A DNA stretch of 64,000 nt, from positions 82,799 through 146,798 of the IMG/VR virus record IMGVR_UViG_3300014039_000017. One strand, written 5' to 3'. The notes beneath the pieces were generated by a model that saw only the letters and a list, made by a program, of their open reading frames with translations, did no database searches and had not been told where the DNA came from. The DNA is from a virus. Lineage: Duplodnaviria > Caudoviricetes. Both the position numbers and the translations under genes were made by a program. Shown here piece after piece: positions 26,940 to 64,000 of the stretch (positions are counted from its first letter, which is position 1; each line of letters opens with the position of its first letter).

Positions 26940-26941
26940 AT

Positions 26942-34882: not shown

Positions 34883-34883
34883 A

Positions 34884-36182: not shown

Positions 36183-36183
36183 T

Positions 36184-36372
36184 TTATTTCTCTCTTAATG
36201 ATTTTATAAAAATATCAGCAAGAATTCCTACAAAATCCAAATTAGAATTCTCGTCGCAATTATTAAATTTAACATCATAATCCAAATTTCCAACTTCTTT
36301 ATCATAAGTAAGATTAATTTGGATTTCATTGTCTGAATTAACGTTTTTAAACGTTACTATGGCTTTCTCCAT
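36184..36372 (-). CDS. Hypothetical protein
   Basis: Packed ORF. Confidence 0.6.
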   Translation of the reverse strand: MEKAIVTFKNVNSDNEIQINLTYDKEVGNLDYDVKFNNCDENSNLDFVGILADIFIKSLREK

Positions 36373-37725: not shown

Positions 37726-37727
37726 GA

Positions 37728-38387
37728 TTAAGCAAATGGAAGATCATCAACAGAATTATTAAGATCTTCTGATACTGCTCCTAGAATATCATCAGCAGTC
37801 TTAGGAGACATTGTTGTAGGTTTTGCGTTATTAGCAGCATCAATCTTCTTAACTTCACTAGAAGTAAGAGTAAGCTCGTGACCGATAACTCTAGTAGCAA
37901 TACCCAAATCACCACTCTTTGTAATTCTTGCAACAAAAGTTGGCATAGATACATAACCATTAGACTGAGGAACAAGCTTAATTTGAACTTTAAGCTTACC
38001 AACGGCAGGATCAGTCCACTGCTTAATAGTATCACAAATTTGTTTAAAGTTACCAGTAAGAGTCTTTGTACCAGAATCAATATCCTTTACAATCTGAGGA
38101 TCTACTGCTTCAAGAATTTCTCTTACAAGAACAAGAAAATGATCCAGCATAGACGCTGATACTCCCCACTGCATAGCTGTACGCTCATCTGACTGAGGTT
38201 CAAAGAAATTCTGTGTATATGGGCCGTATCCATCAATATCAAGCTTTAGTGCAAGCGTCTTAAATGAGTTGCCATCTTTCTGACTAGTCTTAGTCTCAAA
38301 AGCAACTCCCATAAAAGTAGCATCTTTAATTCCTGCCGTAAGCTTACCAGCAGACTCTACAACCTTCTGTGCAAAATTAAAATTCAT
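37728..38387 (-). CDS. Putative single-stranded DNA-binding protein
   Basis: Acidic DDLPF tail; lies between Sak4 and primase. Confidence 0.7.
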   Translation of the reverse strand: MNFNFAQKVVESAGKLTAGIKDATFMGVAFETKTSQKDGNSFKTLALKLDIDGYGPYTQNFFEPQSDERTAMQWGVSASMLDHFLVLVREILEAVDPQIVKDIDSGTKTLTGNFKQICDTIKQWTDPAVGKLKVQIKLVPQSNGYVSMPTFVARITKSGDLGIATRVIGHELTLTSSEVKKIDAANNAKPTTMSPKTADDILGAVSEDLNNSVDDLPFA

Positions 38388-50768: not shown

Positions 50769-51030
50769 TATGATTTTCAGTTAAGATAAAGTCGGAGATA
50801 ACGTAATTATCAACTTTATCTCCAATTGTAAGAAATGGCCCACCATCAAAGTCTATAAAATTAATTTTAGTATAGTCTCCTGGCTCTGTTCCAATTCTTA
50901 AATATCCGGACTCTGTAGAACATTCTTTTAAAGAATTATCTATTTCATATAAATCCGAATCTTCAATTTGAATTAACCTACGATTCCACGGACTATCACA
51001 ATGCCCTTTAAGTTCAATTATATTTCCCAT
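50746..51030 (-). CDS. Hypothetical protein
   Basis: Packed ORF. Confidence 0.6.
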   Translation of the reverse strand: MGNIIELKGHCDSPWNRRLIQIEDSDLYEIDNSLKECSTESGYLRIGTEPGDYTKINFIDFDGGPFLTIGDKVDNYVISDFILTENHNVLVRLG

Positions 51031-52610
51031 TAAAATACAACTTGATTTAACACTTTAGGAACTACAACAACTTGTGCAGATAAATATAAATTAGTAACTG
51101 ATACAGCATTCTCAAGTGCCAATATAGCAGCCTTAGCTGGATCAATAATTCCTGCGTCATACATATTTACTATATTTTCACTATTAGCATCAAACCCACG
51201 AGTTTCGGTCACTTTAGGAAGAATTCTATTAACATCCTTACCACAACTCTTTATAAGCAACTCTATTGGAGTACACAAGGCGGATTTAATAGCTATATCA
51301 GTTATATTGCTTGAATCAAAAGATCTAGCAGCGTTATAATAAGTAATACCTCCGCCAAGCACAACTCCTTCTTCAATAGCAGCCTTAGTTGCTGCAACCG
51401 CGTCATCTACACGATCCTTACGTTCTTGCATTTCAAGTTCTGTAGTTCCTCCAACATAAATTACACAGATACCTCCAGTAAGTTTAGCGAGTCTTTCTTT
51501 ATTAAACTTAATAAGAAAACTATCTTCTGTAGTAGAATCTGCTTCTAATTGTTTAATAGAGTTTCTTATAGATGCTATTCTATCATTTAAACTATCTTTA
51601 GAACCTTTGCCTCCTATAATTGTAGTAGAAGTTTTAGTAATTGTAATTTTATCACATTGGCCTAAATCAGTAATAACTACATTATTAAGCTCAATTCCAG
51701 AATCATAAGAAATATTTACACCGCCTGTAAGAACAGCAAGATCTTCAAGAACAAGTTTACGATAATCCCCAAAAGACGGCGATTTAATAGCACAAACTTT
51801 AAGAGTTCCATTAAGTTTATTAAGCTTTAAAGTCTCAATAACTTCATCATCATAATCTTCTGCTATTAAAAGAATTGCTCTATTAGCTCTTATTACATCG
51901 TTAAGAACGCCTGCTATATCTCTCATAGAAGTAATTTTGTGTTCAGTGATAAAAATATATGGATTTTCAAGAATACAAGTATCTTTTACATAATCAGTAC
52001 AAAAATGAGGAGCAATATAGCCTTTATCAAACTGCATTCCATTAATAATTTCTGATCTTGTATTAACATTAGAAGATTGTTCAACGGTAATAATACCATC
52101 TCTACCAATCTTTTTAAATGCATCTCCTATAAGAGTTCCAAGTTCAGAATCATTATTAGCAGAAATTGTAGCAATATTAGTTATATCTGAATCTTTAATT
52201 GGAATAATATTAGATTTAATATATTCCATTGCTTTTTCTTTAGATTTTATAAGAGCATTTTTAAGCACGACTGGATTGTAACCATTTACAAGTGCTGAAT
52301 CCATATCGTTTATAAGAGATTTAGCTAATACAATAGTTGTAGTAGTTGCATCTCCTACATTAGCAAGCATTTTAAGTGATGCTTCCCTAATTATTTGCGC
52401 TCCAGTATTTTCAAAGAAATCTTCAAGTTCAATTTCTTTTGCAACACTAACTCCATCCTTTGTAATTCTAGGAGATTTGGTGACATCTCCTATAACAACA
52501 CAATTGCCTTTAGGTCCTAAAGTAGCCGATACAGCATCAGCAAGAATGTTAATGCCTTTAAGAAGCTTGTCTTTAGCTTCTTTTCCAAACAAAATATCTC
52601 TAGCAGGCAT
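51030..52610 (-). CDS. groEL: Chaperonin GroEL-like
   Basis: TLGPKG, ITKDGVSVAKEI, GDATTT, GMQFDKGY, KDRVDDA and GIIDP motifs. Confidence 0.95.
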   Translation of the reverse strand: MPARDILFGKEAKDKLLKGINILADAVSATLGPKGNCVVIGDVTKSPRITKDGVSVAKEIELEDFFENTGAQIIREASLKMLANVGDATTTTIVLAKSLINDMDSALVNGYNPVVLKNALIKSKEKAMEYIKSNIIPIKDSDITNIATISANNDSELGTLIGDAFKKIGRDGIITVEQSSNVNTRSEIINGMQFDKGYIAPHFCTDYVKDTCILENPYIFITEHKITSMRDIAGVLNDVIRANRAILLIAEDYDDEVIETLKLNKLNGTLKVCAIKSPSFGDYRKLVLEDLAVLTGGVNISYDSGIELNNVVITDLGQCDKITITKTSTTIIGGKGSKDSLNDRIASIRNSIKQLEADSTTEDSFLIKFNKERLAKLTGGICVIYVGGTTELEMQERKDRVDDAVAATKAAIEEGVVLGGGITYYNAARSFDSSNITDIAIKSALCTPIELLIKSCGKDVNRILPKVTETRGFDANSENIVNMYDAGIIDPAKAAILALENAVSVTNLYLSAQVVVVPKVLNQVVF

Positions 52611-52612
52611 AA

Positions 52613-53704
52613 TTAAAATCCAATTTTAGTTTGTTTTTGTGTACAATCAGTCTCTTCGTAATTATAAATTTCAGCAAGAGTCATAGGCTTATATTCAGAA
52701 AGTTCTACACCTTGCTTATTAAGAAGATTTTTAGTTTTTTCTGTAGAAAGTTCTTTAAATTCATAATTAACAAAACACCTACCTTTACGAAGAAGTGCAG
52801 TATCAATCTTATTTATATCCGCATTAAATGTACATATAAATTTAATGTTAAATATATCTGACATTAATCCATCTGCCATATTAAGTATATTAGCTATAGC
52901 TCCACTAAAATTACCGTCAGTTCTATCTATGAGAATTTGTTCACAATCTTCAAGTATAAATATACTATTTCTATTGGAAAGCATAAATGAAATAAATTCT
53001 GGAGATGCTAAATGCTCCGCAAGTGCATTAGTAACTAGAATATAGCTAGCAGGATGTGTTGTGATAAGATTTCTAAGTATTGTACTTTTGCCACTTCCGA
53101 CCATTCCTCTTAAAATGGCAATACCACTTGTTCTTTCATCTATAAACTTAATTAAATCATTATATACAGGAAGAAAATCATCGTTATAGTTCTCTTTAAG
53201 ATCTATATTAGTTGGCTCGATTTTAGATGTAATAGTATAATAATCACCATCATCTCTGCAAACCAATTTAACATTAGCTGCCTCGGAAATATCCTTTTCT
53301 TCAGGTAGATATTTTAGAATTTTTTCAATAAATTGATCCGGATTACCATTTAAATAGTAATATGTAATAGAATCGTTATCAATAATAACATATTCTTCAT
53401 TACTAGTCATAAATAGTATTCCATCAATAGTAGTTTCGTTTACCTTACTTTCATCTTCGTTATCTTCTACACAAGATGTCACACTTCTATCATATCTACT
53501 ATAAATAGATATAAGAGTTCCTTTAAAATCTTTAAGTAATTTATCGAGGTCTACTTTATCTAAATCAAAATTACCATCAATACAATAAATATGTTTTTTA
53601 GGATATTTTCCAAAAACATTGATAAAAAATGGAATAGGTTTTACTTCTCCGTACGCGAAACTATTATTATAAGTTTCTTTCGTTAATTTTATTTCTGAGT
53701 TCAT
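52613..53704 (-). CDS. AAA+ ATPase
   Basis: GMVGSGKS, ILEDCE, TFN and D.ALLRKGR motifs. Confidence 0.85.
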   Translation of the reverse strand: MNSEIKLTKETYNNSFAYGEVKPIPFFINVFGKYPKKHIYCIDGNFDLDKVDLDKLLKDFKGTLISIYSRYDRSVTSCVEDNEDESKVNETTIDGILFMTSNEEYVIIDNDSITYYYLNGNPDQFIEKILKYLPEEKDISEAANVKLVCRDDGDYYTITSKIEPTNIDLKENYNDDFLPVYNDLIKFIDERTSGIAILRGMVGSGKSTILRNLITTHPASYILVTNALAEHLASPEFISFMLSNRNSIFILEDCEQILIDRTDGNFSGAIANILNMADGLMSDIFNIKFICTFNADINKIDTALLRKGRCFVNYEFKELSTEKTKNLLNKQGVELSEYKPMTLAEIYNYEETDCTQKQTKIGF

Positions 53705-54119
53705 TTAAAAATTGATTTTGTGTTGATTCGTCCCAATCAGAAAATAATTCTTCATCACCTAAAGAATCTTTCATATAAAGAGAATTATTTTTTATATAAA
53801 ATTCATACTCTTCTCCTTGTAAAGTTCACTTTCATATTCCCGATTGAATAAGTCTATATCTAAATTCCCCTTCAGTTATACTAATAATCTTCTGTTTTGC
53901 TAGTTTATGATAATTAGTATCAATATCAATAAGTTCCGGATCGTATTTAAGTAAAATTTGTCTAATTGTCTTTTTAGATGGATTACCTAAGGCTCTTTGA
54001 ATTTCTCCGTAAGAATAACTGTTGTTCCTAAGTGCCAATATAGCTTTTTCTAACTCTGATGCATCTTTATATTGAGATACTAAGTCAGAATATTTATCTA
54101 ATATTTCTTTAAGTTTCAT
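53667..54119 (-). CDS. Hypothetical HTH-like protein (TGA=Trp)
   Basis: SYGEIQRALG. Two TGA readthroughs extend it to TAA 53667. Confidence 0.6.
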
Positions 54120-54333
54120 TTACTTGTTTTATTATATAATTATAAAATTCGCCTCTTCTTTTTGAGCTAGTAAAACATACTTTTTTATTATAAGTATTAC
54201 CTTTAAAGCAATATTTTATCTTAACAATGTAAGGGTCTGAATAATAAAAAGTGTCTAATTCGTCTTTAGATATAGATACTATATAATCTACATTAATAGC
54301 TGTGTTTCCAAAATTAATTAGTTTCATATTCAT
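54109..54333 (-). CDS. Hypothetical protein
   Basis: Packed ORF. Confidence 0.55.
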   Translation of the reverse strand: MNMKLINFGNTAINVDYIVSISKDELDTFYYSDPYIVKIKYCFKGNTYNKKVCFTSSKRRGEFYNYIIKQVNET

Positions 54334-54571
54334 CTTTTAGTATTTCATATAAATCATATAACGTATCCATAGTTAATACTTCTAATGGAGCCACATAGGA
54401 TTCAAATAAAACAGTAATTCCATATTTAGAATTATTATCTACTTCAATACCAATAAACTCATTATCGTCTTTAATTAAATATTGTGATTTATTTTCTGGA
54501 ATTAACATTTCACAATAAAATGTTATTTCTAGACATAATTCATTATAAAAATCATCTTTACTTGGTAACAT
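54314..54571 (-). CDS. Hypothetical acidic protein
   Basis: Packed ORF. Confidence 0.6.
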   Translation of the reverse strand: MLPSKDDFYNELCLEITFYCEMLIPENKSQYLIKDDNEFIGIEVDNNSKYGITVLFESYVAPLEVLTMDTLYDLYEILKDEYETN

Positions 54572-54583
54572 AATTTTTTAGAT

Positions 54584-54622
54584 AAAAAATACTCGCCTAA
54601 AAATTAATTTAGACGAGTATTT
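54584..54622 (-). terminator. Terminator downstream of suppressor tRNA
   Basis: AAATACTCGTCTAAA/TTTAGGCGAGTATTT stem with T-run. Confidence 0.75.
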
Positions 54623-54645
54623 AAGTTAATATTTTGTAATAATAG

Positions 54646-54716
54646 CGGGGTTTTAAAGGCTCGAACTCTAACTAATTGATTTGAAGTCAATTGTGCTACC
54701 ATTACACCAAAACCCC
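54646..54716 (-). tRNA. Opal suppressor tRNA, anticodon UCA (tRNA-Trp-like)
   Basis: GGGGTTT-TG-GTGT AATGGTA GCAC-A-ATTGA CT[TCA]AA TCAAT-TAGT-TAGAG TTCGAGC CTTTA-AAACCCC-G; short variable loop; G73. Confidence 0.93.
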
Positions 54717-54766
54717 AATTCCGACTATAAAGTCAGTCGGCAACTTTTATTCTCAATCTTGCTATA

Positions 54767-54797
54767 CAAATATAACAAAATTTTTTATCTTGTCAAA
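54767..54797 (-). promoter_or_regulatory. Bacteroidota-type promoter for suppressor tRNA
   Basis: TTTG-N19-TATATTTG. Confidence 0.72.
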
Positions 54798-54864
54798 ATA
54801 AATTCCGTTATTTCAGAAAATAACATTGGAATTAAAATAATACCGCAAATTAATATAAACATAA

Positions 54865-56010
54865 TTATTTCATATAAGCCGCTCTTGCAGCATTTGTTAT
54901 TTGAATTACTTTTGCTTTCTTTTGAAATTCGTATAGACTAGTAGAATCGCAATAAGACATTGCTGAACGTAAGTAATCAACAAAATTTTCTATCCAGCCA
55001 GATAGAGTATATTTTACTTCTACCATTCTTTCCACACCTTCAGAAGTATGTAATTTATCATTACCCATTTCTTTTTGGGCCTTTTTTGTAGACATACCAT
55101 AGTAATTACGATATATATTAGGAAATTTCTGAATGATATATGGTTTAGAAGATAGTTTTAATGTTGAGGTTCTAATTAAATCTGACTCTTTTTCAGCAAC
55201 TAAAGCATCTACATAGTTGTAATACTTATATGTTCCATCACTATATAAAAATTTCTGCAATGTTTCTCCACAAGCTTCTTCGCATTCTGCAAATATCTTA
55301 CCACACATTACATAATCAGCGCCAAGAGCAAGGCATTTAATTATCTTATCATAAGAATCAATACCACCATCAGCAATTATCTTAGGAAGTTCTTTAAGTG
55401 GCTCTTCCCTTGTAAATTGCTTTTGCATTATTTGTAATTTAACTGCATGTATTTCTGAAAGCAATGTAGCCATGGGAGTATGAACTGATAATTGAACTGA
55501 TGTGAGGCACGCGTTTCCGTTTCCAATTGAACAACGAGCATAATCAATTCCAGCCTTATAATATTCATAATACGTTTCTGGATTTGCAATATTGCCAGCC
55601 ATTAAAAGAATTTTATCCCCAAACTGATCCTTTGCTTTTTTGCATAGATTTATAAGTTTAGACATATGACCGTTAGCAATATCAACGCAGACTTTTATTT
55701 GCTCTCCATCATCAATATCTAGATTAAGAATTTTATTTTCAAATTCATCTAAACTAACAGCAATAAAAGTATGTAAAGAATTACTTAATCTTTCTTCAAA
55801 GGATAAAGTCCTAGGAAGTATGGTATTAATTTTATTCTCTTGAAACTTTTTATAATTACCAAGATTGATTACAGAACTCATGGGCGCTGTAAATATTGGA
55901 AGCATACCATCAAACCAATAAGGATCACATTCTGACCTATGCTCTATTCTAGATATATTAGACGGCATTATAGAAACATCGTCTAAGCCTAAATATATTT
56001 TATTCGTCAT
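54865..56010 (-). CDS. GMP reductase / IMP dehydrogenase family
   Basis: DIANGH, MAGNIA, IGNGNACLT, IIADGG, YYGMST, SEG and LRSAMSY motifs. Confidence 0.88.
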   Translation of the reverse strand: MTNKIYLGLDDVSIMPSNISRIEHRSECDPYWFDGMLPIFTAPMSSVINLGNYKKFQENKINTILPRTLSFEERLSNSLHTFIAVSLDEFENKILNLDIDDGEQIKVCVDIANGHMSKLINLCKKAKDQFGDKILLMAGNIANPETYYEYYKAGIDYARCSIGNGNACLTSVQLSVHTPMATLLSEIHAVKLQIMQKQFTREEPLKELPKIIADGGIDSYDKIIKCLALGADYVMCGKIFAECEEACGETLQKFLYSDGTYKYYNYVDALVAEKESDLIRTSTLKLSSKPYIIQKFPNIYRNYYGMSTKKAQKEMGNDKLHTSEGVERMVEVKYTLSGWIENFVDYLRSAMSYCDSTSLYEFQKKAKVIQITNAARAAYMK

Positions 56011-56683
56011 AAGTTTTTACAATAAATTTATCATTATCAATTATTAAATACTGTGGAAGATTATCACATAACCAAATATGTGGAAATCTACAATTTTGAT
56101 CATGCTTATCGTATATATGAGTAACTGGAGTATGTCCAACTACTTGTATATAATTATCTACTGCGCAAGTAACAAGATTTTGAGGTCTAATCCATGTTGG
56201 AGGTTGAGAATTGGATGTACCACTATTATCTGAATAATTATCTGGAGTAAATCCAAATATTTCATTCCAGCCTTGGTTACTTATATCTTCCAAAGTTAAA
56301 CCATTATTATTTAACCACATTTTAGAAACGCCAGCGTGTGAAAACAAGATATTATCTTGAATATAAAACCATTGGGACAATCTACTAAATCTATCAAATT
56401 CTGGAATTAATTTTATCAGTAATTTTTGAGAAGGGCAAGGGTAACAATCACCCCAACTAAATTTCCAGCAATCATGGTTCCCTCTAAGTAAAATAACTTT
56501 ATCTAAATTATCTTCTTTATATGATAAGATTTTCATAAAATTATCAAACTGATCTTCTTCTGAAATTAATTGATGCGAAGTAATATAATCACCAAGAAAT
56601 ATAATTTTATCTGGATTTTCTTGTTCTATTATTGGTTTCCAACAATTTCTACCGTGTATATCTCCTAATATTAATGTTCGCAT
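56000..56683 (-). CDS. Calcineurin-like metallophosphoesterase
   Basis: GDIHG, GDY, RGNHD, SHAG and GHT motifs. Confidence 0.88.
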   Translation of the reverse strand: MRTLILGDIHGRNCWKPIIEQENPDKIIFLGDYITSHQLISEEDQFDNFMKILSYKEDNLDKVILLRGNHDCWKFSWGDCYPCPSQKLLIKLIPEFDRFSRLSQWFYIQDNILFSHAGVSKMWLNNNGLTLEDISNQGWNEIFGFTPDNYSDNSGTSNSQPPTWIRPQNLVTCAVDNYIQVVGHTPVTHIYDKHDQNCRFPHIWLCDNLPQYLIIDNDKFIVKTYDE

Positions 56684-56913
56684 GATTTTAGCAGATTTAT
56701 AATTCCACAAGCAATAATATATAATATTATAGTAATTATAATTATAATAGCCAAAAGAAGCCCTACAATCAACGGAAATAGTAAAGGTAGGACAACTATC
56801 CACCAACTCATATTTATTGCAATAGTGAGCTTAGAAATAAGCAAAATAAGGGTTATAAAAACCAACCCACTATATATTTTTTCCATATAAACAAAAAGGA
56901 GACTATTTTTCAA
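56671..56913 (-). CDS. Small membrane protein
   Basis: SWWIVVLP and hydrophobic helices. Confidence 0.65.
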   Translation of the reverse strand: MKNSLLFVYMEKIYSGLVFITLILLISKLTIAINMSWWIVVLPLLFPLIVGLLLAIIIIITIILYIIACGIINLLKSCEH

Positions 56914-57196
56914 TAGCCTCCTTATTTAAATATAAAACTTTATTTTCTTCATTAATAAAATCTCTATCTAAAGGTCTTGTAATAGTAAAAGATGTTTCAA
57001 ATATAGTTTTATCATCATTTTCACATAATACTATTACTTTATTACCATTCCTTTCAGTAATCCATCCTGGTAATATCTTATCTTTTATTTTTACATAAAC
57101 ATCATCAAATACCTTAATATCTGAAATAGTGGCTTTAGATAAAGTTAAAGTAGGTTCTTCTACTTTCTTTTTAAATATTCTACTAAATAAACTCAT
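56903..57196 (-). CDS. Hypothetical protein
   Basis: Likely start MSLF. Confidence 0.6.
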   Translation of the reverse strand: MSLFSRIFKKKVEEPTLTLSKATISDIKVFDDVYVKIKDKILPGWITERNGNKVIVLCENDDKTIFETSFTITRPLDRDFINEENKVLYLNKEAIEK

Positions 57197-57215
57197 AGTT
57201 GTAAAATTTACAACA

Positions 57216-57389
57216 CTATGAGTCCAAATCATCACTTCAATCTACATCGGAAAGATCTACAAAGCCTTCTCGTTTATCTTTCTTTTCTCTTTTACGATCT
57301 TTCTTTTTACCTGTTTTCTTCTTTTTGATGTGTTCTACCGGATCTACATCATCATACTTATCAAGATCCGAAAGTGAAATTTTACTCAT
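57216..57389 (-). CDS. Small highly charged protein (one TGA near C-terminus)
   Basis: MSKISLSDLDKYDD...KKKKTGKKKDRKREKKDKRE. Confidence 0.5.
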
Positions 57390-57409
57390 TGTAGTGTTTT
57401 AATAAATAT

Positions 57410-58000
57410 CTATCTCTTTAATATAGAATTAATAAAATCTAAAGAAATTGGTTTATAATTCCAAGCATCTACTCCAACATCCATTTGATTTGGATGTAAT
57501 TTTAAGTTTTGATCTAAGCCGTTTGGATCCGCATTTGGACCACTATGAATATGTCCAAATAAATTAGGAACGTTGTGCTCAATATGAGGCCATGTAAGAA
57601 GTGGTAGATGAGATAACATTAATTCTTGTCCATGATTGTTTTCATCATAAATCCAAACTTGTGTACAGGTTTCACATACGATTACTTTATTTGGATCACA
57701 TAATTCAAAAGTTTCTTTTTTATCATGATTTCCCAAAATAACATAATGTATACCATTCAACTTATTTAAAATCTTTTTACAATCATGTCTACTTTTAAAC
57801 CAACATACATCTCCTAAATCAAATACAATATCTTCGTCAGATACTATAGAATTCCAATTTTCTATCAACTTAATTTCCATATCTTTAGAATCAGTAAAAG
57901 GCCTCTTACAAAATCTTATTACATTATCATGCTGAAAATGTAAATCAGATGTAAAATATACTTTTTGATTCTCTTTTAAATGAATGACTATTTTATCCAT
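57410..58000 (-). CDS. Metallophosphoesterase
   Basis: TSDLHF.H, LGD, GNHD, SH and GHIH motifs. Confidence 0.88.
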   Translation of the reverse strand: MDKIVIHLKENQKVYFTSDLHFQHDNVIRFCKRPFTDSKDMEIKLIENWNSIVSDEDIVFDLGDVCWFKSRHDCKKILNKLNGIHYVILGNHDKKETFELCDPNKVIVCETCTQVWIYDENNHGQELMLSHLPLLTWPHIEHNVPNLFGHIHSGPNADPNGLDQNLKLHPNQMDVGVDAWNYKPISLDFINSILKR

Positions 58001-58016
58001 AATTAAAAAATATTAG

Positions 58017-58087
58017 TTGAAGCTGTGTGAGTCGAACACACCTTGATGGGACCAAAACCCATAGTATTACCGATATACGAAGCTTCA
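58017..58087 (-). tRNA. tRNA-Gln (UUG)
   Basis: TGAAGCT acceptor, ATGGG TT[TTG]GT CCCAT, GTGTG TTCGACT CACAC. Confidence 0.9.
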
Positions 58088-58092
58088 ATACC

Positions 58093-58123
58093 CAAAGATA
58101 ATAATTATTTAATTAAATACAAA
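58093..58123 (-). promoter_or_regulatory. Bacteroidota-type promoter for tRNA-Gln
   Basis: TTTG-N19-TATCTTTG immediately upstream. Confidence 0.7.
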
Positions 58124-58127
58124 ATTA

Positions 58128-58337
58128 TTAATACTCTTTTATTACTCTAGTGCTTTTAGGGGTTGTAGCATATAATTTGTCAATACATTTTTCAGCCTCT
58201 TTAATTGTATCATATTTTGTAATATAATTAAACTCACTAAGTAGCCCTCCTATATTTTCTTCAACAACATATTTTTTATCTCCGTTGAAATAAGTAACTT
58301 CAATAATTCTATACTTAACAGAACTCATATTCTTCAA
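58128..58337 (-). CDS. Hypothetical protein
   Basis: Packed ORF. Confidence 0.55.
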   Translation of the reverse strand: MKNMSSVKYRIIEVTYFNGDKKYVVEENIGGLLSEFNYITKYDTIKEAEKCIDKLYATTPKSTRVIKEY

Positions 58338-58770
58338 CAGTAAATCTTAAACCATCAATATGTTGATCTCTTCCTCTATTTAACCACGATTCTTCTGGAT
58401 GTGCTTTATAATATTCGGAATAATCCCAATCATTTTTCTTTGAATCAACAAGACGCCAAAAATCATCGGTGTTAATAATTTCACCATATTCGTTATAAAT
58501 GATTCCGGAATTCAACCAATCGGTCATATCTTCACGATTAAGAGCGGTGCATCTTTGTATTGTTAGGTTAAACAAAAATTGCCAACCACCCGAAGATTTG
58601 CCTATATGAATTTCACAAGTATTTAAATCATAAGGAAGATTATTAATTGGTGTATACCCGTTAATAAAATCCTTTAATTCTTGAATGGACTTTACAGATT
58701 TTGTTCTATTAATAATCTCTTCTCTTTGCTGCTCAGTTATAAGAGGTCTCCAATAATAATTAGTACCCAT
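58315..58770 (-). CDS. Hypothetical protein (MGTNYY...HIGKSS.GW phage family)
   Basis: Recognisable motif pattern. Confidence 0.7.
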   Translation of the reverse strand: MGTNYYWRPLITEQQREEIINRTKSVKSIQELKDFINGYTPINNLPYDLNTCEIHIGKSSGGWQFLFNLTIQRCTALNREDMTDWLNSGIIYNEYGEIINTDDFWRLVDSKKNDWDYSEYYKAHPEESWLNRGRDQHIDGLRFTVEEYEFC

Positions 58771-58772
58771 AG

Positions 58773-59006
58773 TTAAAGAATATAAGTATAACCGTCAATA
58801 GAATCTCCACATTCTTCACAATCACCTATATGCTCATATTCACCATATTGACCAATATAATCATTAATGCATTGAATAAGAAATTCTTTTGATTTAGGAA
58901 GTTTATTAAAAATTTCTATAATTTTTTCTTCAGGTAACTCTATAATGTTTTCATCATCAACAGTGGTACCCCAACAGATACAACCTTCAGTTTTAACTAT
59001 TTTCAT
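58773..59006 (-). CDS. Hypothetical protein with CxxC
   Basis: Packed ORF. Confidence 0.6.
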   Translation of the reverse strand: MKIVKTEGCICWGTTVDDENIIELPEEKIIEIFNKLPKSKEFLIQCINDYIGQYGEYEHIGDCEECGDSIDGYTYIL

Positions 59007-59187
59007 TATTAGGCATAATTAAAGAACAAATAAAATATGTAATTGTTATCGGAATTATTCCTGTAAATATAAATAGTAAAACTGTAAAAACACGTAAAAT
59101 CGTAACATCGCAATCTAAATATTCTGAGATACCTCCTAAAACACCACAAAGCATTCGTTCATTACGACTTCTAAACAACTTTTTCAT
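58993..59187 (-). CDS. pspC: PspC-domain membrane protein
   Basis: KKLFRS..ERMLCGVLGGISEYL..D.TILR...Y....LIMP. Confidence 0.85.
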   Translation of the reverse strand: MKKLFRSRNERMLCGVLGGISEYLDCDVTILRVFTVLLFIFTGIIPITITYFICSLIMPNNENS

Positions 59188-59188
59188 A

Positions 59189-59404
59189 TTATTTCTCAAG
59201 TGCTTTTCTAAGATTGTTAAGTAATAAATCTACATCGTGATCGCCATTTTCCTTCACATAGTTGCAGTCTTGAGCTTCATATGCACATTTTGAAATCCAT
59301 TTGGCGACGTTTTCAATCATCCATTCAGCTCCATTAACAAAACCAGCATAAGCATCGCTGTCTTGTGTACCCGCATATTCTTTTGCTTTTTCTTCGATAG
59401 TCAT
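59189..59404 (-). CDS. Hypothetical protein (IEEKAKEY...F..GAEW family)
   Basis: Motif pattern common in Bacteroidota phages. Confidence 0.65.
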   Translation of the reverse strand: MTIEEKAKEYAGTQDSDAYAGFVNGAEWMIENVAKWISKCAYEAQDCNYVKENGDHDVDLLLNNLRKALEK

Positions 59405-59406
59405 AA

Positions 59407-59721
59407 CTATTTACAATTTGCCCTCTGTTCAAACCTGTCACAAACAGCTTCTTTGTATGTTGCGGCCTTATCAAGCCAACATGTTAGATTGAGCTTTTCA
59501 TCTTCACTGCAATTTATACAATATTTACAAGTGTTAGCAGAACGATAATTATTCTTCTTCCTATCGTTATCTATTCTTTTTCCTCTTTCGATTTCAAGTA
59601 CACGACTGCAACAGCGTTCTGCAAAATCACGAATGTATGCTGTATTACTGTTAATAAATCGTTCAGAAGCAGTCTCTAAATATAGAGACATAACTATTTC
59701 TTTAATTTCATTTGTTTTCAT
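59407..59721 (-). CDS. Hypothetical protein with Cys-rich C-terminus
   Basis: CKYC..C...C...C. Confidence 0.6.
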   Translation of the reverse strand: MKTNEIKEIVMSLYLETASERFINSNTAYIRDFAERCCSRVLEIERGKRIDNDRKKNNYRSANTCKYCINCSEDEKLNLTCWLDKAATYKEAVCDRFEQRANCK

Positions 59722-59984
59722 ATCCTATTTCCTTTTAATTCTCCAATAAGGGCATCAACAAGCTAGACAAATAATTGATTATTTTTCTCTTGCTATCCAC
59801 ACCATAATTAATCTTTCTTTAATAGCCATATCTAACATAATATTCGCACCACGCATCAAGAGCAATATCTTTTGCTGCGTCTAAATGTTTTGAAAGAAAA
59901 TTAGAAACTTCGTTGAAATTATTTATATTGCCTTTAAATTTAACATTTAACCAATTCTCGCAGTATCTGACTGCGCGTTTTTGT

Positions 59985-60389
59985 TTATTTGTTGTCATTT
60001 TCTTTAATTTTTCTTTCTCTCAACGCCACGACCGCCCGGCTGAGATATGAATAATGCTTGTATGTGCAGCCGCAATCGCCGGAGCCGAAGTTGACGACCC
60101 ACTCATGAGCTGAATAAGACTCCGACGAAGACCCAAACCAGTCGTCAAGCAAATCTCCATTATGCTCTTTGAGGATATTATTAATCTCCTCTTTCTGAAG
60201 ATACATTTGGAGCAAATCTTCCTTTGTAGCAATCTGTATATTATGCTCTTCAGCGTATTTCATATAATCATCATAAGGCATACTCGGAACATTATCCTTA
60301 AGCAATACCTTATCAATCAAAGGTATGTAAACTCCTTGCTGTTCCTCAACCCAGCGAGGAGTAATCATTTCTTTAAGATTCTTGTTCAT
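59985..60389 (-). CDS. DUF1566/C-type-lectin-fold protein with DGR-like variable region
   Basis: W..SSSE....W.VNF.SG......K......RAV.A C-terminus, locally GC-rich. Confidence 0.7.
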   Translation of the reverse strand: MNKNLKEMITPRWVEEQQGVYIPLIDKVLLKDNVPSMPYDDYMKYAEEHNIQIATKEDLLQMYLQKEEINNILKEHNGDLLDDWFGSSSESYSAHEWVVNFGSGDCGCTYKHYSYLSRAVVALRERKIKENDNK

Positions 60390-60391
60390 AA

Positions 60392-60889
60392 CTAATCCTT
60401 CCACCATTTATAGTACTCCTGACAATCATCTGTAGTCCCGAGAAGATGCTTTGTTTCATCATCGTAAGGGATGCATTGATACCAATTCCTGCCAATACAC
60501 CGCATAGAATCTTTTCGTGCTCCGTGGTAAATGTCTGAAAACATATCTATTCTCCAAATATCCTCATCGTAATCCCTTACCAGTACCTTATCAAACGGCT
60601 GGAATGTCTTAGGATCAAACCTTTTGACGGGCACCTTGAACTTGCCCCAATCACGCTGATCCTTAGAGGGGAATAGCATAGTCTCTCCATACGTAGAATT
60701 GATATAAGTTCCATCTATTTGAAAATATGCTGACTTCATTTCATACTCATTACTTGCATATAAAACATAAATTAAATCATTAGCGGAATCTAAGTACCCA
60801 AGTTCTACTTCACCAAAAATTGGGGAATACAATTTTGTTCCAATTGAACAATTCTTAAGAATTTCAAAAAGATTTATATTTTCGTTCAT
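60392..60889 (-). CDS. Hypothetical protein (LYSPIFG...LFPSKDQRDW...FQPFDKVLVRD family)
   Basis: Motif pattern typical of Bacteroidota phages. Confidence 0.75.
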   Translation of the reverse strand: MNENINLFEILKNCSIGTKLYSPIFGEVELGYLDSANDLIYVLYASNEYEMKSAYFQIDGTYINSTYGETMLFPSKDQRDWGKFKVPVKRFDPKTFQPFDKVLVRDYDEDIWRIDMFSDIYHGARKDSMRCIGRNWYQCIPYDDETKHLLGTTDDCQEYYKWWKD

Positions 60890-60891
60890 AA

Positions 60892-61302
60892 TTAATCGTC
60901 TAAATATTTATAAAATGTCTTAAAGGCATCATTTCTTAATTTTTCAAATTCTTTAATAGAAATTTCAACATATTTACTAAACATTTCTAATACATATTTT
61001 TGATCACCGAAAAAAGTATCTAATTGTTCGTAAGGAAGATATGTAAAATAATTATCATGCTTAGAAAACGATATAGAAAAATCAATAAGCTCACAACGAA
61101 TATAATATTTATATGAAATATATTCTATTTTAACAATCCTAAACGCTCTAAAAGCATTATCGATATTTTCTTTGAAACATTTACCTTCTAAAGCGTATAC
61201 TTCTTTATTTAAAAGTTTATGCTTCTCAAGAATTAAATTGTCTCGCTCAGCGTTAAGCTCTACAATTCTTTTTTCTAATTCTTCTATTTTATTTAAATCC
61301 AT
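60892..61302 (-). CDS. Hypothetical protein
   Basis: Likely start MDLN. Confidence 0.6.
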   Translation of the reverse strand: MDLNKIEELEKRIVELNAERDNLILEKHKLLNKEVYALEGKCFKENIDNAFRAFRIVKIEYISYKYYIRCELIDFSISFSKHDNYFTYLPYEQLDTFFGDQKYVLEMFSKYVEISIKEFEKLRNDAFKTFYKYLDD

Positions 61303-61711
61303 ATATTGGTTTATATTTATTATACAAATCAGTAAGAACATACTTTCCAACAGATTTCTCTCTTTTAGAATCACGTTCTATAAGTTCTTGCAAAGAAACA
61401 TCAAAGAAATCTTTATAAGAAATTTGTTCTCCAGAACATCTAGAAAGTATTTTACCTACATGTTCTTTAGATAAATTCATATTATCTATGATAATATCAT
61501 ATTTTTGGTATCTAGCGAAATTAAGAGAAGCATAAAATATATTCCATACTAAAGTTTCTCTTTCAGGAACCCAATAATTATTTATTCCACCAAGCATAAT
61601 GCGAATATCATCACAGTTAAGCCTGATTCTATGTATAGGACCCTCAGAAACCCACTCTTTTGAAAAAGTGGACTTCCCACTTGCAGGAAGCCCACGGCAT
61701 ATAATAACCAT
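61289..61711 (-). CDS. P-loop kinase (polynucleotide kinase-like)
   Basis: RGLPASGKST, D.IR, IIDNMN and ERD..R motifs. Confidence 0.82.
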   Translation of the reverse strand: MVIICRGLPASGKSTFSKEWVSEGPIHRIRLNCDDIRIMLGGINNYWVPERETLVWNIFYASLNFARYQKYDIIIDNMNLSKEHVGKILSRCSGEQISYKDFFDVSLQELIERDSKREKSVGKYVLTDLYNKYKPIYGFK

Positions 61712-61908
61712 TATTTTATTATCTTTTTAATAAAATATGCAGGAAAATAAAATATAAAGAAAAGTAAAACGAATGGCCATAGTATTCCAATACCTCCGAT
61801 TATGGACCAATCATCCCAATCAAGATCAAGAAAATAATTAACGATAAATATTGTAATTATTCCTAGTATTATATATATCATAATACTAATTATTATAATC
61901 CAAATCAT
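61711..61908 (-). CDS. Small membrane protein
   Basis: Two hydrophobic segments, LWP. Confidence 0.55.
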   Translation of the reverse strand: MIWIIIISIMIYIILGIITIFIVNYFLDLDWDDWSIIGGIGILWPFVLLFFIFYFPAYFIKKIIK

Positions 61909-61909
61909 A

Positions 61910-62119
61910 TTACAATCTATTATAGCAACAATAAAGAAAAGCATCAATTTTAGAATCATCGTAGAAACAATCAACGCCATCTACAAATTGAACTTTTCTT
62001 GCTACATGATATTCAGAATCTATTATATTAAATACTTCTTGTCCAAATCTAATATGCTCTTCTCTTTTAGATGCTTTAGCAAGAATATCTTTTCTAAATG
62101 ATTCAAACGTTTTATTCAT
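61910..62119 (-). CDS. Hypothetical protein
   Basis: R.GQ..FN...DCFY pattern. Confidence 0.6.
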   Translation of the reverse strand: MNKTFESFRKDILAKASKREEHIRFGQEVFNIIDSEYHVARKVQFVDGVDCFYDDSKIDAFLYCCYNRL

Positions 62120-62471
62120 ATTTTAAATTATTAGCTTCATTTATAAAACCTTTAATTCTAAGAATATGTTGCAATTGATGAACATATTTAATTTCTAAAC
62201 CTTCACAACTAAAATCTTTAGTATGGCCATATAAATAAGGAAAATCTTTATGTCTCCATAAATAACCCAATTCATCATATTCCCATCCATTTAATTCAAG
62301 AAATTTCCCAGTTATACTACAAGGATTAAATTTAACATTAGGAATATAATAATCATCCATTTTATAGTCCGCTCCAATCATAATAGGATCAATATAATCT
62401 ATTTGAACAGGAGCGCTCACATCCAACATCCAAACCCAATCATTTAAAGAAACTTCAGAATAATTAATCAT
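62112..62471 (-). CDS. Hypothetical protein (IKYVHQLQH family)
   Basis: Motif pattern. Confidence 0.65.
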   Translation of the reverse strand: MINYSEVSLNDWVWMLDVSAPVQIDYIDPIMIGADYKMDDYYIPNVKFNPCSITGKFLELNGWEYDELGYLWRHKDFPYLYGHTKDFSCEGLEIKYVHQLQHILRIKGFINEANNLKYE

Positions 62472-62670
62472 TATCTTTAACTTTTGGTTTAATTTCTATA
62501 TATTGAATTTTATCTTCGTTTGGCGCTATCCAAAAATAAAATGGAATTAAACATCTAATAAATGTAAAATCTCGATTAGATATTTTTACCAAGCCAAAAT
62601 ATTGAAGAGCAATTGTAATATAATATATTATATACAAAAGCAAAGCAACAATAATTATTATTTTAAACAT
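62464..62670 (-). CDS. Small membrane protein
   Basis: Hydrophobic; LIPFYFW. Confidence 0.55.
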   Translation of the reverse strand: MFKIIIIVALLLYIIYYITIALQYFGLVKISNRDFTFIRCLIPFYFWIAPNEDKIQYIEIKPKVKDND

Positions 62671-63541
62671 GGAGTAAGCTATTTACTTTTTTAATTTTAG
62701 ATATAGATTCATCAAGATCTTTTTGATATTCTACAGGGCATACAACTCTACAAATTTTACCATTTATATTAGTGAGCCTCATTCCATAACAGGCATCTGA
62801 TATAGGATCATACACAGAGCAACATCTGGTTAAATTATAATCTGAACCAGAAACAAATCGCATTAATAAACTAATAACATATCCTGGAGTAATACTCGCA
62901 GAAGTTCCAAGTAAAGAAGTTATCGTATTTTCTCCTGCCTTAGTTTGTTCTTTAGCAACTCTTAACTTATCTTTATCAACAGGGCTATCAGCTTCAACTA
63001 TAGGAATCATAGTTCCAGCTCCATGTCCCCCAATAACATAAGCATCACTATATTTTATATTTAACGCTTTAAGATAAAATTCGAGCCTAAAAACATCAAG
63101 ATCATTACCAAAACCAAATATATTATCTGAAGGCACTCCTTTAGAACCTAAGTATTTTACAGCAAAATAAGTCATAGTATCAACAGGGTTAGATACTATA
63201 ATAAATTTGGCTTTTGGAGAATAGATAAAAGATTTATCAAGAATTCCTTTAACTATATTTTTATTTACAGATATAAATTCTTCTATGGACATATCAGATT
63301 TCCAAGGTGATTCACTTGTAATGATTATAAAATCAGAATTTTTAGTCATTTCATAATTACTAGTAACCCCTACAAGATCATAATCCTCTCCAATTTGAGA
63401 TATATCTAGAGCTTTACCTTCAGCAAGACCAAGTTTTTCGTCTAGGAGAACCACTTTATATCTACTTCCATAATAATATTGCTTAAGAAATAAAGCAACC
63501 ATTGTGCCAATATTTTCAGCGCCTATAATACTAATTTTCAT
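62663..63541 (-). CDS. Malate/lactate dehydrogenase-family protein, degenerate motifs
   Basis: KISIIGA, AEGKALDI, VSNPVD, LD..R and GGHG..M.P motifs. Confidence 0.8.
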   Translation of the reverse strand: MKISIIGAENIGTMVALFLKQYYYGSRYKVVLLDEKLGLAEGKALDISQIGEDYDLVGVTSNYEMTKNSDFIIITSESPWKSDMSIEEFISVNKNIVKGILDKSFIYSPKAKFIIVSNPVDTMTYFAVKYLGSKGVPSDNIFGFGNDLDVFRLEFYLKALNIKYSDAYVIGGHGAGTMIPIVEADSPVDKDKLRVAKEQTKAGENTITSLLGTSASITPGYVISLLMRFVSGSDYNLTRCCSVYDPISDACYGMRLTNINGKICRVVCPVEYQKDLDESISKIKKVNSLLHV

Positions 63542-64000
63542 AATAAATCTTTTTTAAGTTTTTACAGATATAATCAAATGAATTAGATTTCTCCAATTGT
63601 TTCATAATACAATCTATTTTATCTCTAGTCTTTATATTAATCGAAAGTGCATTAGGGCGCTTATTATACCACCACCACTGCGATTCATTTAAAGGAGATG
63701 CTTTAGATCCATTATATGCTTTATTTGCTCCAAACCAATCACATATCATTTCTGCAAATGCTTTATATGGCATTTCTATATGTGTTGTTCCAGAATCAAA
63801 ATTATCTTGCCAATATTCATAATGATGATCATTCCTACCTTTATGATGAAGCCAAGCTTTAGAATAACCATTTTCTTCTTTACTTGCTTCTATAGGAGAA
63901 CGTTTACCATTATAATATTTAACAGATTCAAAAAATTCAGTTGGGCTAAATTTTGATAAATCATGAGTTATTCCTCGCCAATATAAGCCAGCTTTAAAAC
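63531..64000 (-). CDS. DUF5662-like HD-related protein, 5'-truncated
   Basis: HDLSKFSP.EF...AWLHHKGRNDHHYEYW...EMICDW. Confidence 0.75.
   Translation of the reverse strand, partial: FKAGLYWRGITHDLSKFSPTEFFESVKYYNGKRSPIEASKEENGYSKAWLHHKGRNDHHYEYWQDNFDSGTTHIEMPYKAFAEMICDWFGANKAYNGSKASPLNESQWWWYNKRPNALSINIKTRDKIDCIMKQLEKSNSFDYICKNLKKIYYEN

What the first reader, a model, noticed from the sequence alone, without database searches (positions are those of the whole stretch)
53667..54797. Opal suppressor tRNA as an independent transcription unit marking the boundary of TGA use
Seen on the minus strand, in order: promoter (54767-54797), leader hairpin CCGACT/AGTCGG (54721-54740), tRNA(UCA), terminator (54584-54622). 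The ~9 kb of genes upstream are Trp-rich but intact in code 11; the only exception noticed is a TGA at 57237 near a C-terminus. The first clearly TGA-dependent gene, an HTH-like protein with W-K-W encoded TGA-AAG-TGA, lies 0.5 kb downstream. Inference: a genetic-code switch in which early genes are code-neutral, the tRNA unlocks middle and late genes, and the HTH protein could sense suppression (95 versus 150 aa forms). No RF or TrpRS gene is seen, so an RF2 antagonist may be among the small neighbouring ORFs.
Basis: partly seen in the sequence, partly recalled or inferred. Interest (0 to 1): 0.85.

Follow-up and report, generated by a model that had tools for sequence, protein, structure and literature searches.

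The report
Phage opal-suppressor tRNA after TGA-free genes
A large crAss-like gut phage that spells many tryptophans with the stop codon TGA carries its own UGA-reading tRNA, with its own promoter and terminator, right after a block of 20 genes that strictly avoid TGA; this fits a published code-switch model, so it is a clean new example and not a new principle.

Summary
A 72-nt tRNA(UCA) lies at 54645-54716 (-). It has a promoter of both sigma-70 and Bacteroides type, a 5' leader hairpin and a 15-bp terminator. The contig is a 147-kb crAss-like phage, 84% complete, in which TGA means Trp.

The 20 genes upstream of the tRNA have 0 in-frame TGA against 55 TGG. Other A/G-ending codon pairs there are 75-79% A-ending, as in the rest of the genome. 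TGA makes up 39% of Trp codons downstream on the minus arm and 72% on the plus arm.

- The early-standard, late-recoded model is already published (Yutin 2021; Borges 2021).
- The boundary is not unique. TGG-only islands lie downstream, and some relatives have TGA genes upstream.
- The "sensor" protein uses TGG at the same Trp positions in half of the related lineages.
- The small ORFs proposed as RF2 antagonists are absent from relatives.
- No RF or TrpRS gene was found.

New detail: the tRNA slot, its leader hairpin and its terminator are conserved in relatives, yet the tRNA body between them occurs in at least four unrelated versions.

Two relatives carry the "decoy CCA arm" form of the tRNA. 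This scan has already found that form on other DNA.

The parts
54767..54797 (-). Promoter of the tRNA unit. It reads TTGACA-16-TATATT with a TG extension, and equally TTTG-N19-TATATTTG (Bacteroides -33/-7).
   Evidence: The promoter is nearly identical in relatives L108, L109 and L112.
54721..54740 (-). 5' leader hairpin, CCGACT-GACTTTAT-AGTCGG, ending 4 nt before tRNA position 1.
   Evidence: The loop ACTTTAT and the stem are conserved in L108, L109, L112, L106 and L110. G001 keeps the loop and has two compensatory stem pairs, ACCACT/AGTGGT.
54645..54716 (-). tRNA(UCA): opal suppressor with a class-I body, anticodon loop CUUCAAA and G73. CCA is not encoded.
   Evidence: The nearest database relatives are phage tRNA-Trp genes; the one read, crAss-like cr111_1, has anticodon CCA and is 88% identical over 50 nt.
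54587..54622 (-). Intrinsic terminator: a 15-bp stem followed by a T run. The next ATG is only 16 nt further on.
   Evidence: It is conserved with compensatory changes in L108, L109, L112 and L106.
54865..63773 (-). TGA-free, Trp-rich block of 20 genes. It includes an IMPDH/GMP-reductase-like gene (54865-56010), two metallophosphoesterases (56000-56806 and 57410-58000) and many small ORFs. The contig ends at 64000.
   Evidence: Strain variant L104 has about six replaced genes, still with no TGA except the one near the C-terminus of the 57-aa small ORF.
57216..57389 (-). Small ORF holding the only in-frame TGA of the block (57237-57239). It is 50 aa if TGA stops and 57 aa if TGA is read as Trp.
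   Evidence: Public gene callers call it as 57 aa.
58016..58123 (-). tRNA-Gln(UUG), 58016-58087, with a Bacteroides-type promoter at 58093-58123 that ends 5 nt before the tRNA.
54109..54571 (-). Two small ORFs (85 aa and 74 aa) without Trp codons, matching no known family and not conserved in relatives.
53667..54119 (-). First TGA-dependent gene, 150 aa, with TGA at 53832-53834 and 53826-53828 (W96 and W98). The N-terminal domain resembles sigma region 4 / LuxR helix-turn-helix domains; the C-terminal domain is alpha/beta.
   Evidence: Coding potential continues past the TGAs.
51030..53704 (-). AAA ATPase (52613-53704) and GroEL-like chaperonin (51030-52610), the syntenic anchors of the tRNA slot. 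Neither has a single Trp codon in 889 codons.

Best explanation
This is the opal-suppressor tRNA-Trp(UCA) of a TGA-to-Trp recoded, distantly crAss-like phage. Its host is most likely a standard-code member of the Bacteroidota.

Proposed mechanism:
1. The tRNA is made from its own host-type promoter as a short unit of leader hairpin, tRNA and terminator.
2. The host TrpRS charges it. G73 and a tRNA-Trp-like body are the recognition features.
3. It reads UGA in competition with the host's RF2.
4. The 20 genes transcribed before it on the same strand are kept entirely free of TGA, because they must be translated while UGA still terminates.
5. Once the tRNA has accumulated, the TGA-bearing replication genes (39% of Trp codons on the minus arm downstream of the tRNA) and the virion-arm genes (72%) can be translated in full.

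Shown here: the tRNA gene and its signals, TGA = Trp, selection against TGA in the block, and the conserved position of the tRNA.

Inferred, not shown: the timing, charging by host TrpRS, and how RF2 is outcompeted.
For: - tRNA and its signals.
- TGA = Trp: TGA codons of this phage align to TGA (35) or TGG-Trp (34) in relative G001, then to Tyr and Phe, which is the same profile as TGG. A conserved W-x-W is TGA-TGA in some lineages and TGG-TGG in others.
- Selection, not mutation bias: Trp codons in the upstream block are 0 TGA against 55 TGG, while Lys, Glu, Gln, Leu and Arg A/G pairs are 75-79% A-ending there as elsewhere. GC content is the same, and 217 off-frame TGA are present.
- The block stays TGA-free, apart from the one near-C-terminal TGA of the 57-aa small ORF, in a strain with replaced genes. 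It is largely TGA-free in relatives with 40-65% protein identity.
- Every relative examined has a tRNA(UCA) in the same slot, upstream of the HTH-like/AAA/GroEL genes.
- Compensatory changes in the D and T stems between G000 and L108 show a working tRNA.
- Host: the portal protein resembles those of crAss-like phages of Bacteroidota. Bacteroides -7 motifs are enriched in intergenic DNA, 14 of 50 in 11% of the arm. PolB is exchanged for PolA at the same locus, as described for crAss-like phages.
- The model is published.
Against: - There are no expression data, so the block being "early" is inferred from its position and its code only.
- TGG-only islands also lie downstream of the tRNA and on the plus arm, and they are conserved as TGG-only in G001. 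Avoidance of TGA is therefore partly gene-specific and not purely positional.
- Some relatives have TGA-bearing ORFs upstream of their tRNA: G003 immediately upstream, L027, L029 and G001 37705-38169.
- The strong terminator leaves no room for a promoter before the next gene, so how the downstream genes are transcribed is unexplained.
- The contig is 84% complete, and the missing part lies upstream of the block.
- The sigma-70 match alone is not beyond chance.
Confidence: 0.75

Rival explanations
1. Efficiency, not timing. TGA is avoided gene by gene wherever read-through in competition with RF2 would be too costly, for example in highly expressed or dose-sensitive proteins. The tRNA sitting next to a TGA-free run would then be inherited synteny without any switch function.
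For: - TGG-only islands lie downstream (32344-36372, 19468-22091, 26047-27142) and on the plus arm (genome 49993-54190). Their orthologues in G001 are also TGG-only.
- GroEL and the AAA ATPase avoid Trp altogether.
- Sense TGA is followed by T less often than TGG is (20% against 29%), while true stops are followed by T in 63% of cases.
Against: - Twenty consecutive genes, many of them tiny strain-variable ORFs that are unlikely all to be highly expressed, have 0 TGA out of 55 Trp codons.
- The block ends exactly at the tRNA in G000, G001, L024 and L109.
Confidence: 0.15
2. The host itself reads UGA as Trp or supplies a suppressor. The phage tRNA would then be only a codon-usage supplement, like its tRNA-Gln(UUG).
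For: - The phage encodes no RF or TrpRS.
- Only two tRNAs lie in the contig, and both read A-ending codons.
Against: - In a code-4 host nothing would keep 55 of 55 Trp codons as TGG while every other NNR pair is about 77% A-ending.
- Published code-matched phages have in-frame TGA in about 90% of their genes. Here many genes have none.
- The crAss-like kinship and the Bacteroides-type promoters point to Bacteroidota, which use the standard code (the code assignment is established knowledge).
Confidence: 0.04
3. The TGA-free block is recently acquired foreign DNA from standard-code sources that has not yet drifted towards TGA.
For: - The block holds host-like metabolic genes (IMPDH/GMP-reductase-like, metallophosphoesterases) and strain-variable cargo.
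Against: - The GC content (29.8%) and the A-ending bias match the rest of the genome.
- Orthologous genes in relatives with about 40-50% identity are also TGG-only.
- The block is syntenic across the clade.
Confidence: 0.04

Closest known systems
Suppressor tRNA(UCA) of TGA-recoded crAss-like phages (Yutin et al. 2021, PMC7886860; Lera phage, PMC12386605)
   Same: - Large crAss-like genomes of 145-192 kb with introns and homing endonucleases, switching between PolA and PolB, TGA read as Trp, and a phage-encoded UCA tRNA.
- Recoding is stronger in the late (virion) genes.
   Different: - Here the replication genes are recoded as well.
- The contig has only two tRNAs, against 26 in Lera.
- The tRNA is a stand-alone unit at the end of a strictly TGA-free block.
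- The portal protein is only about 25% identical to those of named crAss-like phages, so membership of a named family is open.
Code-switch model and the Jade "code change module" (Borges et al., bioRxiv 10.1101/2021.08.26.457843)
   Same: - Standard-code-compatible genes come first, and the suppressor tRNA is encoded in standard-code surroundings directly upstream of recoded genes.
- The host is predicted to use the standard code.
   Different: - The Jade module also carries TrpRS and RF1, and both are absent here.
- The Jade module sits before the lysis cassette. Here the tRNA sits before regulator, chaperonin and replication genes.
tRNA-Trp(UCA) of organisms that natively use code 4 (Mycoplasma, Spiroplasma)
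   Same: - UCA anticodon, G73, A36-A37-A38, and UGA read as Trp.
   Different: - Those organisms lack RF2 and use TGA throughout their genomes.
- Here part of the genome is kept TGA-free, and the tRNA must compete with the host's release factor.
Phage tRNA-Trp(UCA) with a decoy CCA arm
   Same: - The same job in the same kind of phage.
- Relatives G003 and L029 carry this form in the very slot occupied by the window's tRNA.
   Different: - The window's tRNA is a plain 72-nt class-I molecule without the extra arm.
tRNA-Sec (selC), the label ARAGORN gives
   Same: - UCA anticodon only.
   Different: - A 7/5 acceptor/T-arm geometry, a 4-bp D stem and a 4-nt variable region. It has no long variable arm and no 8-bp acceptor stem.
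- The codon is read as Trp at conserved Trp positions.

Membership tests
Phage-encoded opal suppressor tRNA-Trp(UCA) | Cloverleaf tRNA with anticodon UCA | tested here: met
   ARAGORN; Rfam tRNA model at 64.4 bits
Phage-encoded opal suppressor tRNA-Trp(UCA) | In-frame TGA in the same genome at positions that are Trp in homologues | tested here: met
   TGA aligns to TGA (35), W (34), Y (14) and F (13), the same profile as TGG. The conserved W-x-W is TGA in some lineages and TGG in others.
Phage-encoded opal suppressor tRNA-Trp(UCA) | Trp identity features: G73 discriminator and descent from tRNA-Trp | tested here: met
   G73 is present here and in all 10 related slot tRNAs. The closest database hits are phage tRNA-Trp genes, of which the one read (cr111_1) has anticodon CCA.
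Phage-encoded opal suppressor tRNA-Trp(UCA) | Charged with Trp by TrpRS | not testable with these tools
   Needs aminoacylation assays or mass spectrometry.
Phage-encoded opal suppressor tRNA-Trp(UCA) | Host uses the standard code | tested here: inconclusive
   The evidence is indirect: 0 TGA out of 55 Trp codons in the early block, crAss-like portal, Bacteroides-type promoters. No host was identified.
Jade-type code change module (suppressor tRNA + TrpRS + RF1) | TrpRS and RF1 genes next to the tRNA | tested here: not met
   PF00579, PF00472 and PF03462 gave no match in the contig, nor PF00579 and PF00472 in relatives that are 94-95% complete. The window's contig is 84% complete.
tRNA-Sec | Long variable arm, 8-bp acceptor stem, 6-bp D stem | tested here: not met
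   72 nt with a 7-bp acceptor stem, a 4-bp D stem and a 4-nt variable region.
Decoy-arm tRNA-Trp(UCA) | A second anticodon-like stem-loop displaying CCA in the variable-arm position | tested here: not met
   Absent from the window's tRNA. Present in syntenic relatives L003:1812-1906 and L029:5607-5699.
crAss-like phages (Crassvirales in the broad sense) | Signature portal and structural genes, a block of giant RNAP-containing proteins, PolA/PolB switching, Bacteroidota hosts | tested here: inconclusive
   The portal resembles crAss-like portals at about 25% identity. PolB here is replaced by PolA in close relative L108. The giant plus-arm proteins matched no PHROG family. TerL and MCP were not examined.
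Helix-turn-helix regulator (the 150-aa protein) | Three-helix DNA-binding domain | tested here: inconclusive
   No Pfam or PHROG match. The model has pLDDT 87. Residues 11-62 align to sigma region 4 and LuxR-type domains at Z 4-5 only, and Foldseek found no match.

The most novel reading that the evidence does not exclude
The suppressor tRNA sits in a conserved expression cassette of promoter, invariant leader hairpin (loop ACUUUAU) and terminator, and the tRNA body inside that cassette is repeatedly replaced. At least four unrelated UCA bodies occur among phages whose flanking proteins are 73-86% identical.

If this reading is right, two things would follow. The hairpin would be a processing or regulatory element that times maturation of the suppressor. 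The turnover of bodies would reflect an arms race, either matching different hosts' TrpRS or escaping host defences that target tRNAs.
Probability: 0.25. Interest if true: 0.7.

Novelty: new member of a known kind. Interest (0 to 1): 0.42.

Why it matters
This is an unusually clean natural example of a phage genome written in two codes. An absolute ban on TGA (0 of 55 Trp codons) sits beside near-neutral use of it (72%), and the suppressor tRNA lies at the junction as a compact promoter-to-terminator unit.

That makes the published but untested code-switch timer directly testable. The cassette is about 220 bp, its signals are of host type, and natural variants exist: four tRNA bodies, forms with and without the decoy arm, and TGA or TGG versions of the first client gene.

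The conserved leader hairpin and the swapping of tRNA bodies are leads on how phages install and maintain a suppressor in a host that still has RF2.

Tried and rejected
- ORF 59819-60349, with 3 TGA inside the "TGA-free" block, is rejected. Its coding score is negative. The real genes are 59985-60407 and a 59-aa ORF at 59819-59998.
- The TTG-start extension of 58315-58770 through two TGA is also rejected.
- RF1/RF2 (PF00472, PF03462) and TrpRS (PF00579) gave no match in the contig, and PF00472 and PF00579 gave none in three relatives.
- The Rfam scan of 53000-59000 at E <= 1 found only the two tRNAs and two chance-level rows. No ribozyme or other RNA family lies next to the tRNA.
- Sigma-70-like sites are not enriched (32 observed, 37.5 expected). 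Matches at 11 of 12 are not rarer than simulated.
- The full Bacteroides-type promoter pattern is not significantly enriched in the window as a whole (5 observed, 3.2 expected). Only its positions and the intergenic enrichment of the -7 motif are informative.
- Searches for the leader hairpin in IMG/VR and in JGI metagenomes found only G001 and G002, or nothing.
- The ENA contigs carrying the same phage could not be searched as whole records, so the missing 16% of the genome was judged only through relative G001.
- Foldseek against the PDB gave no match for the 150-aa protein.
- PHROG searches did not identify the major capsid protein among the TGA-free plus-arm genes.
- Complex prediction was not used, because nothing here supports a claim that a small ORF binds RF2.
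Full report
**What the window is**

The window is the last 64 kb of a single 146,798-bp IMG/VR virus contig. The contig is linear, 84% complete by CheckV's estimate, and has 30% GC. Reading TGA as a sense codon fuses the fragmented frames genome-wide, and every resulting gene ends in TAA or TAG.

The genome has two arms:
- A plus arm (genome 1-97692) with portal, tail, tail-fibre and reverse-transcriptase genes, homing endonucleases and giant proteins.
- A minus arm (window 14943-64000) with replication and accessory genes: PolB, an exonuclease, a LAGLIDADG endonuclease, GroEL and an AAA ATPase.

The portal protein is closest to unannotated human-gut phages (about 45% identity). The next closest, at about 25%, are crAss-like phages and Cellulophaga and Flavobacterium phages. 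The phage has PolB where a close relative (L108) has PolA at the same locus. That switch is a published hallmark of crAss-like phages. The most likely host is therefore a member of the Bacteroidota, which use the standard code (established knowledge).

**The observation**

- ARAGORN and Rfam find a 72-nt tRNA with anticodon UCA at 54645-54716 (-). It and a tRNA-Gln(UUG) at 58016-58087 are the only tRNAs in the contig.
- The promoter at 54767-54797 reads TTGACA-16-TATATT with a TG extension. The same bases read TTTG-N19-TATATTTG, an exact Bacteroides -33/-7 promoter.
- The hairpin CCGACT-GACTTTAT-AGTCGG (54721-54740) ends 4 nt before the tRNA. A 15-bp stem with a T run (54587-54622) follows the tRNA.

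A sigma-70 match of this quality is not beyond chance in such AT-rich DNA. The case for the promoter rests on three other points:
- It is intergenic.
- The second tRNA has the same kind of promoter directly in front of it.
- It is conserved nearly base for base in relatives.

Bacteroides -7 motifs are about 2.5-fold enriched in intergenic DNA of the minus arm.

**TGA means Trp**

Across 62 orthologous pairs with relative G001, the TGA codons of this phage align to TGA (35), TGG-Trp (34), Tyr (14) and Phe (13). That is the same profile as its TGG codons; Gly (2) and Arg (1) are rare. A conserved W-x-W in the 150-aa protein is TGA-TGA in five lineages and TGG-TGG in five others.

The tRNA has G73 and the loop CUUCAAA. 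Its nearest database relatives are phage tRNA-Trp genes; the one read, crAss-like cr111_1, has anticodon CCA and is 88% identical over 50 nt.

**The TGA-free block**

After spurious frames were removed, the 20 genes between 63773 and 54865 hold 2807 codons, with 0 TGA and 55 TGG.

| Region | TGA | TGG | TGA share of Trp codons |
|---|---|---|---|
| Upstream block (54865-63773) | 0 | 55 | 0% |
| Minus arm downstream of the tRNA | 60 | 93 | 39% |
| Plus arm | 282 | 111 | 72% |

The same block is 75-79% A-ending for the Lys, Glu, Gln, Leu(TTR) and Arg(AGR) codon pairs, as in the rest of the genome. It has the same GC content and holds 217 off-frame TGA. The 72% on the plus arm is close to that neutral expectation. 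Fisher's test of 0/55 against 60/93 gives p = 3.5e-10. This is selection, not mutation bias or recent import.

The only in-frame TGA in the block is codon 51 of a 57-codon small ORF (57216-57389). There both readings give nearly the same protein.

The same phage was assembled in at least 24 public metagenome contigs of up to 167.5 kb, and the tRNA unit is 100% identical in the four that were read. One strain with about six replaced genes in the block still has no TGA there apart from that small ORF's.

**Is the tRNA the boundary?**

Only in part. The block does end at the tRNA. The first TGA-bearing gene (53667-54119) follows 0.5 kb later, and coding potential continues past its two TGAs.

Against a single boundary:
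- That gene is the only TGA-bearing one in the next 4.6 kb. GroEL and the AAA ATPase have no Trp codon at all.
- TGG-only islands recur downstream (32344-36372: 0 TGA, 23 TGG; 19468-22091: 0 TGA, 11 TGG; 26047-27142: 0 TGA, 10 TGG) and on the plus arm. Their G001 orthologues are also TGG-only.

In relatives the region upstream of the tRNA is again largely TGA-free. In G001 it is about 18 kb long and runs up to the point where the two arms diverge; L024 and L109 show the same. There are exceptions: a 154-aa ORF with 5 TGA in G001, ORFs in L027 and L029, and the gene immediately upstream in G003. Avoidance of TGA therefore has a positional part and a gene-specific part.

**The slot and the cassette**

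Every relative found carries a tRNA(UCA) on the same strand, between the metallophosphoesterase/IMPDH-like genes and the HTH-like/AAA/GroEL genes. Relatives were found through the AAA ATPase (40-65% identity) or the 150-aa protein (66-86% identity). One of these tRNAs was missed by ARAGORN but scores 37.7 bits with Rfam.

Among the closer relatives:
- The leader hairpin GTTGCCGACTnACTTTATAGTCGG and the terminator are almost invariant, and so is the promoter where it is present.
- G001 keeps the hairpin loop and has two compensatory stem pairs.

The tRNA body between these signals comes in at least four versions that are only 55-72% identical to one another. That is the level seen between unrelated tRNAs.

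| Body type | Found in |
|---|---|
| A | G000, L108, L113, L111 (88-89% identical among G000, L108 and L113; L111 is cut at the contig end and was assigned by eye) |
| B | L112, L110 |
| C | L106, L107 |
| D | L109 |

Type A also occurs behind a different hairpin, in L113. All types keep CUUCAAA and G73. Within type A, changes in the D and T stems are compensatory.

I found no description of this pattern in the papers read, which is not proof that none exists. Its cause is open: recombinational exchange or very fast evolution. So is the role of the hairpin. It could be an RNase P or processing determinant, a protein-binding site, an operator, or an attenuator. In G001, L024 and L027 a hairpin followed by a T run sits directly before the tRNA.

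- The 150-aa protein. Its model (pLDDT 87) has an N-terminal three-helix domain that aligns weakly (Z 4-5) to sigma region 4 and LuxR-type domains, and a C-terminal alpha/beta domain. The two TGA codons sit at the start of the C-terminal domain, so stopping there would leave a bare putative DNA-binding domain. The idea of two forms is therefore structurally plausible. But half of the lineages use TGG at both positions, so it is not a conserved design.
- The small ORFs at 54109-54571. They have no family and no counterpart in G001. In L109 and L112 the terminator runs straight into the HTH-like gene, and L106, L110 and L113 also show nothing resembling them. This argues against a conserved RF2 antagonist among them.
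- RF and TrpRS. No RF or TrpRS gene is in the contig, nor in relatives that are 94-95% complete.
- Codon context. Sense TGA is followed by A more often, and by T less often, than TGG is. True stops are followed by T in 63% of cases. This is a small hint of context selection.

**Comparison with what is known**

- Yutin et al. reported crAss-like phages of 145-192 kb with introns, PolA/PolB switching, TGA or TAG reassignment mostly in late genes, and suppressor tRNAs.
- Borges et al. proposed the same timer: standard-code genes first, then the suppressor tRNA, then the recoded genes. They also described a Jade "code change module" of tRNA, TrpRS and RF1, encoded in standard code directly upstream of recoded genes.
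- The Lera paper describes opal-recoded zeta crAss-like phages.

The present case is thus a new member of a known kind. It is notable for the absolute TGA ban beside the tRNA, for recoding that includes replication genes, for the lack of RF and TrpRS, and for the conserved cassette with variable tRNA bodies.

Two relatives (G003, L029) carry in this same slot the tRNA form with a second, CCA-displaying arm. A pattern search found 17 more such tRNAs. This scan has already reported that form on other DNA.

**Verdict**

The mechanism is most likely the published code-switch model (confidence 0.75). Timing, charging and competition with RF2 remain untested.

Noticed in passing
L003:1812-1906 and L029:5607-5699 (relatives); also L078-L086, L088, L091-L097, L100, L101: The syntenic tRNA(UCA) of two relatives is 93-95 nt long and has two tandem anticodon-like arms, CU-UCA-AA followed by CU-CCA-AA in the variable-arm position. 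A pattern scan of IMG/VR found 19 such tRNAs in all, and both stems covary. Earlier reports of this scan describe the same "decoy CCA arm" on other DNA.
   Followed up: partly
window 54575-54830 compared with L108:9290-9545, L109:2310-2570, L106:9792-10000, L112:1245-1505, L110:1100-1300: The promoter, leader hairpin and terminator are nearly identical, but the tRNA(UCA) body between them is of at least four unrelated types (55-72% identity). The neighbouring proteins are 73-86% identical.
   Followed up: partly
window 58016-58123 (-): tRNA-Gln(UUG) has an exact Bacteroides-type promoter whose -7 element ends 5 nt before tRNA position 1. The transcript may therefore start at or next to the mature 5' end, with almost no leader. 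The UCA tRNA, in contrast, has a leader of about 45 nt.
   Followed up: no
L001:7313-7386, L003:1812-1906, L106:9852-9926: These slot tRNAs have GC instead of GG in the D loop, and TTG or a non-canonical T loop with G at position 56. This is consistent with the tertiary pair G19-C56 being swapped to C19-G56.
   Followed up: no
window 45988-47874 compared with L108:16245-18251: This phage has a family B DNA polymerase with 7 TGA and 0 TGG. Close relative L108 has a family A polymerase at the same locus, and G001 has a 673-aa gene there, with 0 TGA and 11 TGG, that is unrelated to the window's PolB.
   Followed up: partly
window 51030-53704 (-): The AAA ATPase and the GroEL-like chaperonin together have 889 codons without a single Trp codon, neither TGG nor TGA.
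   Followed up: no
window 53826-53834 and the homologues in L106-L113, L001 and L027: The two Trp codons of the conserved W-x-W are always both TGA (5 lineages) or both TGG (5 lineages), never mixed. W129 is always TGG.
   Followed up: partly
whole contig (genome.fa): The base after a sense TGA is A in 48.5% and T in 20% of cases. After TGG it is A in 34% and T in 29%. The base after a true TAA or TAG stop is T in 63% of cases.
   Followed up: partly
L106:10416-12630: In the abundant lineage of L106 and L107, six tandem ORFs of about 100 aa replace the AAA ATPase between the HTH-like gene and GroEL.
   Followed up: no
window 32344-36372 and 19468-22091 (-): These are TGG-only islands (0 TGA with 23 TGG, and 0 TGA with 11 TGG) inside the recoded minus arm. 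The orthologues in G001 are also TGG-only.
   Followed up: partly
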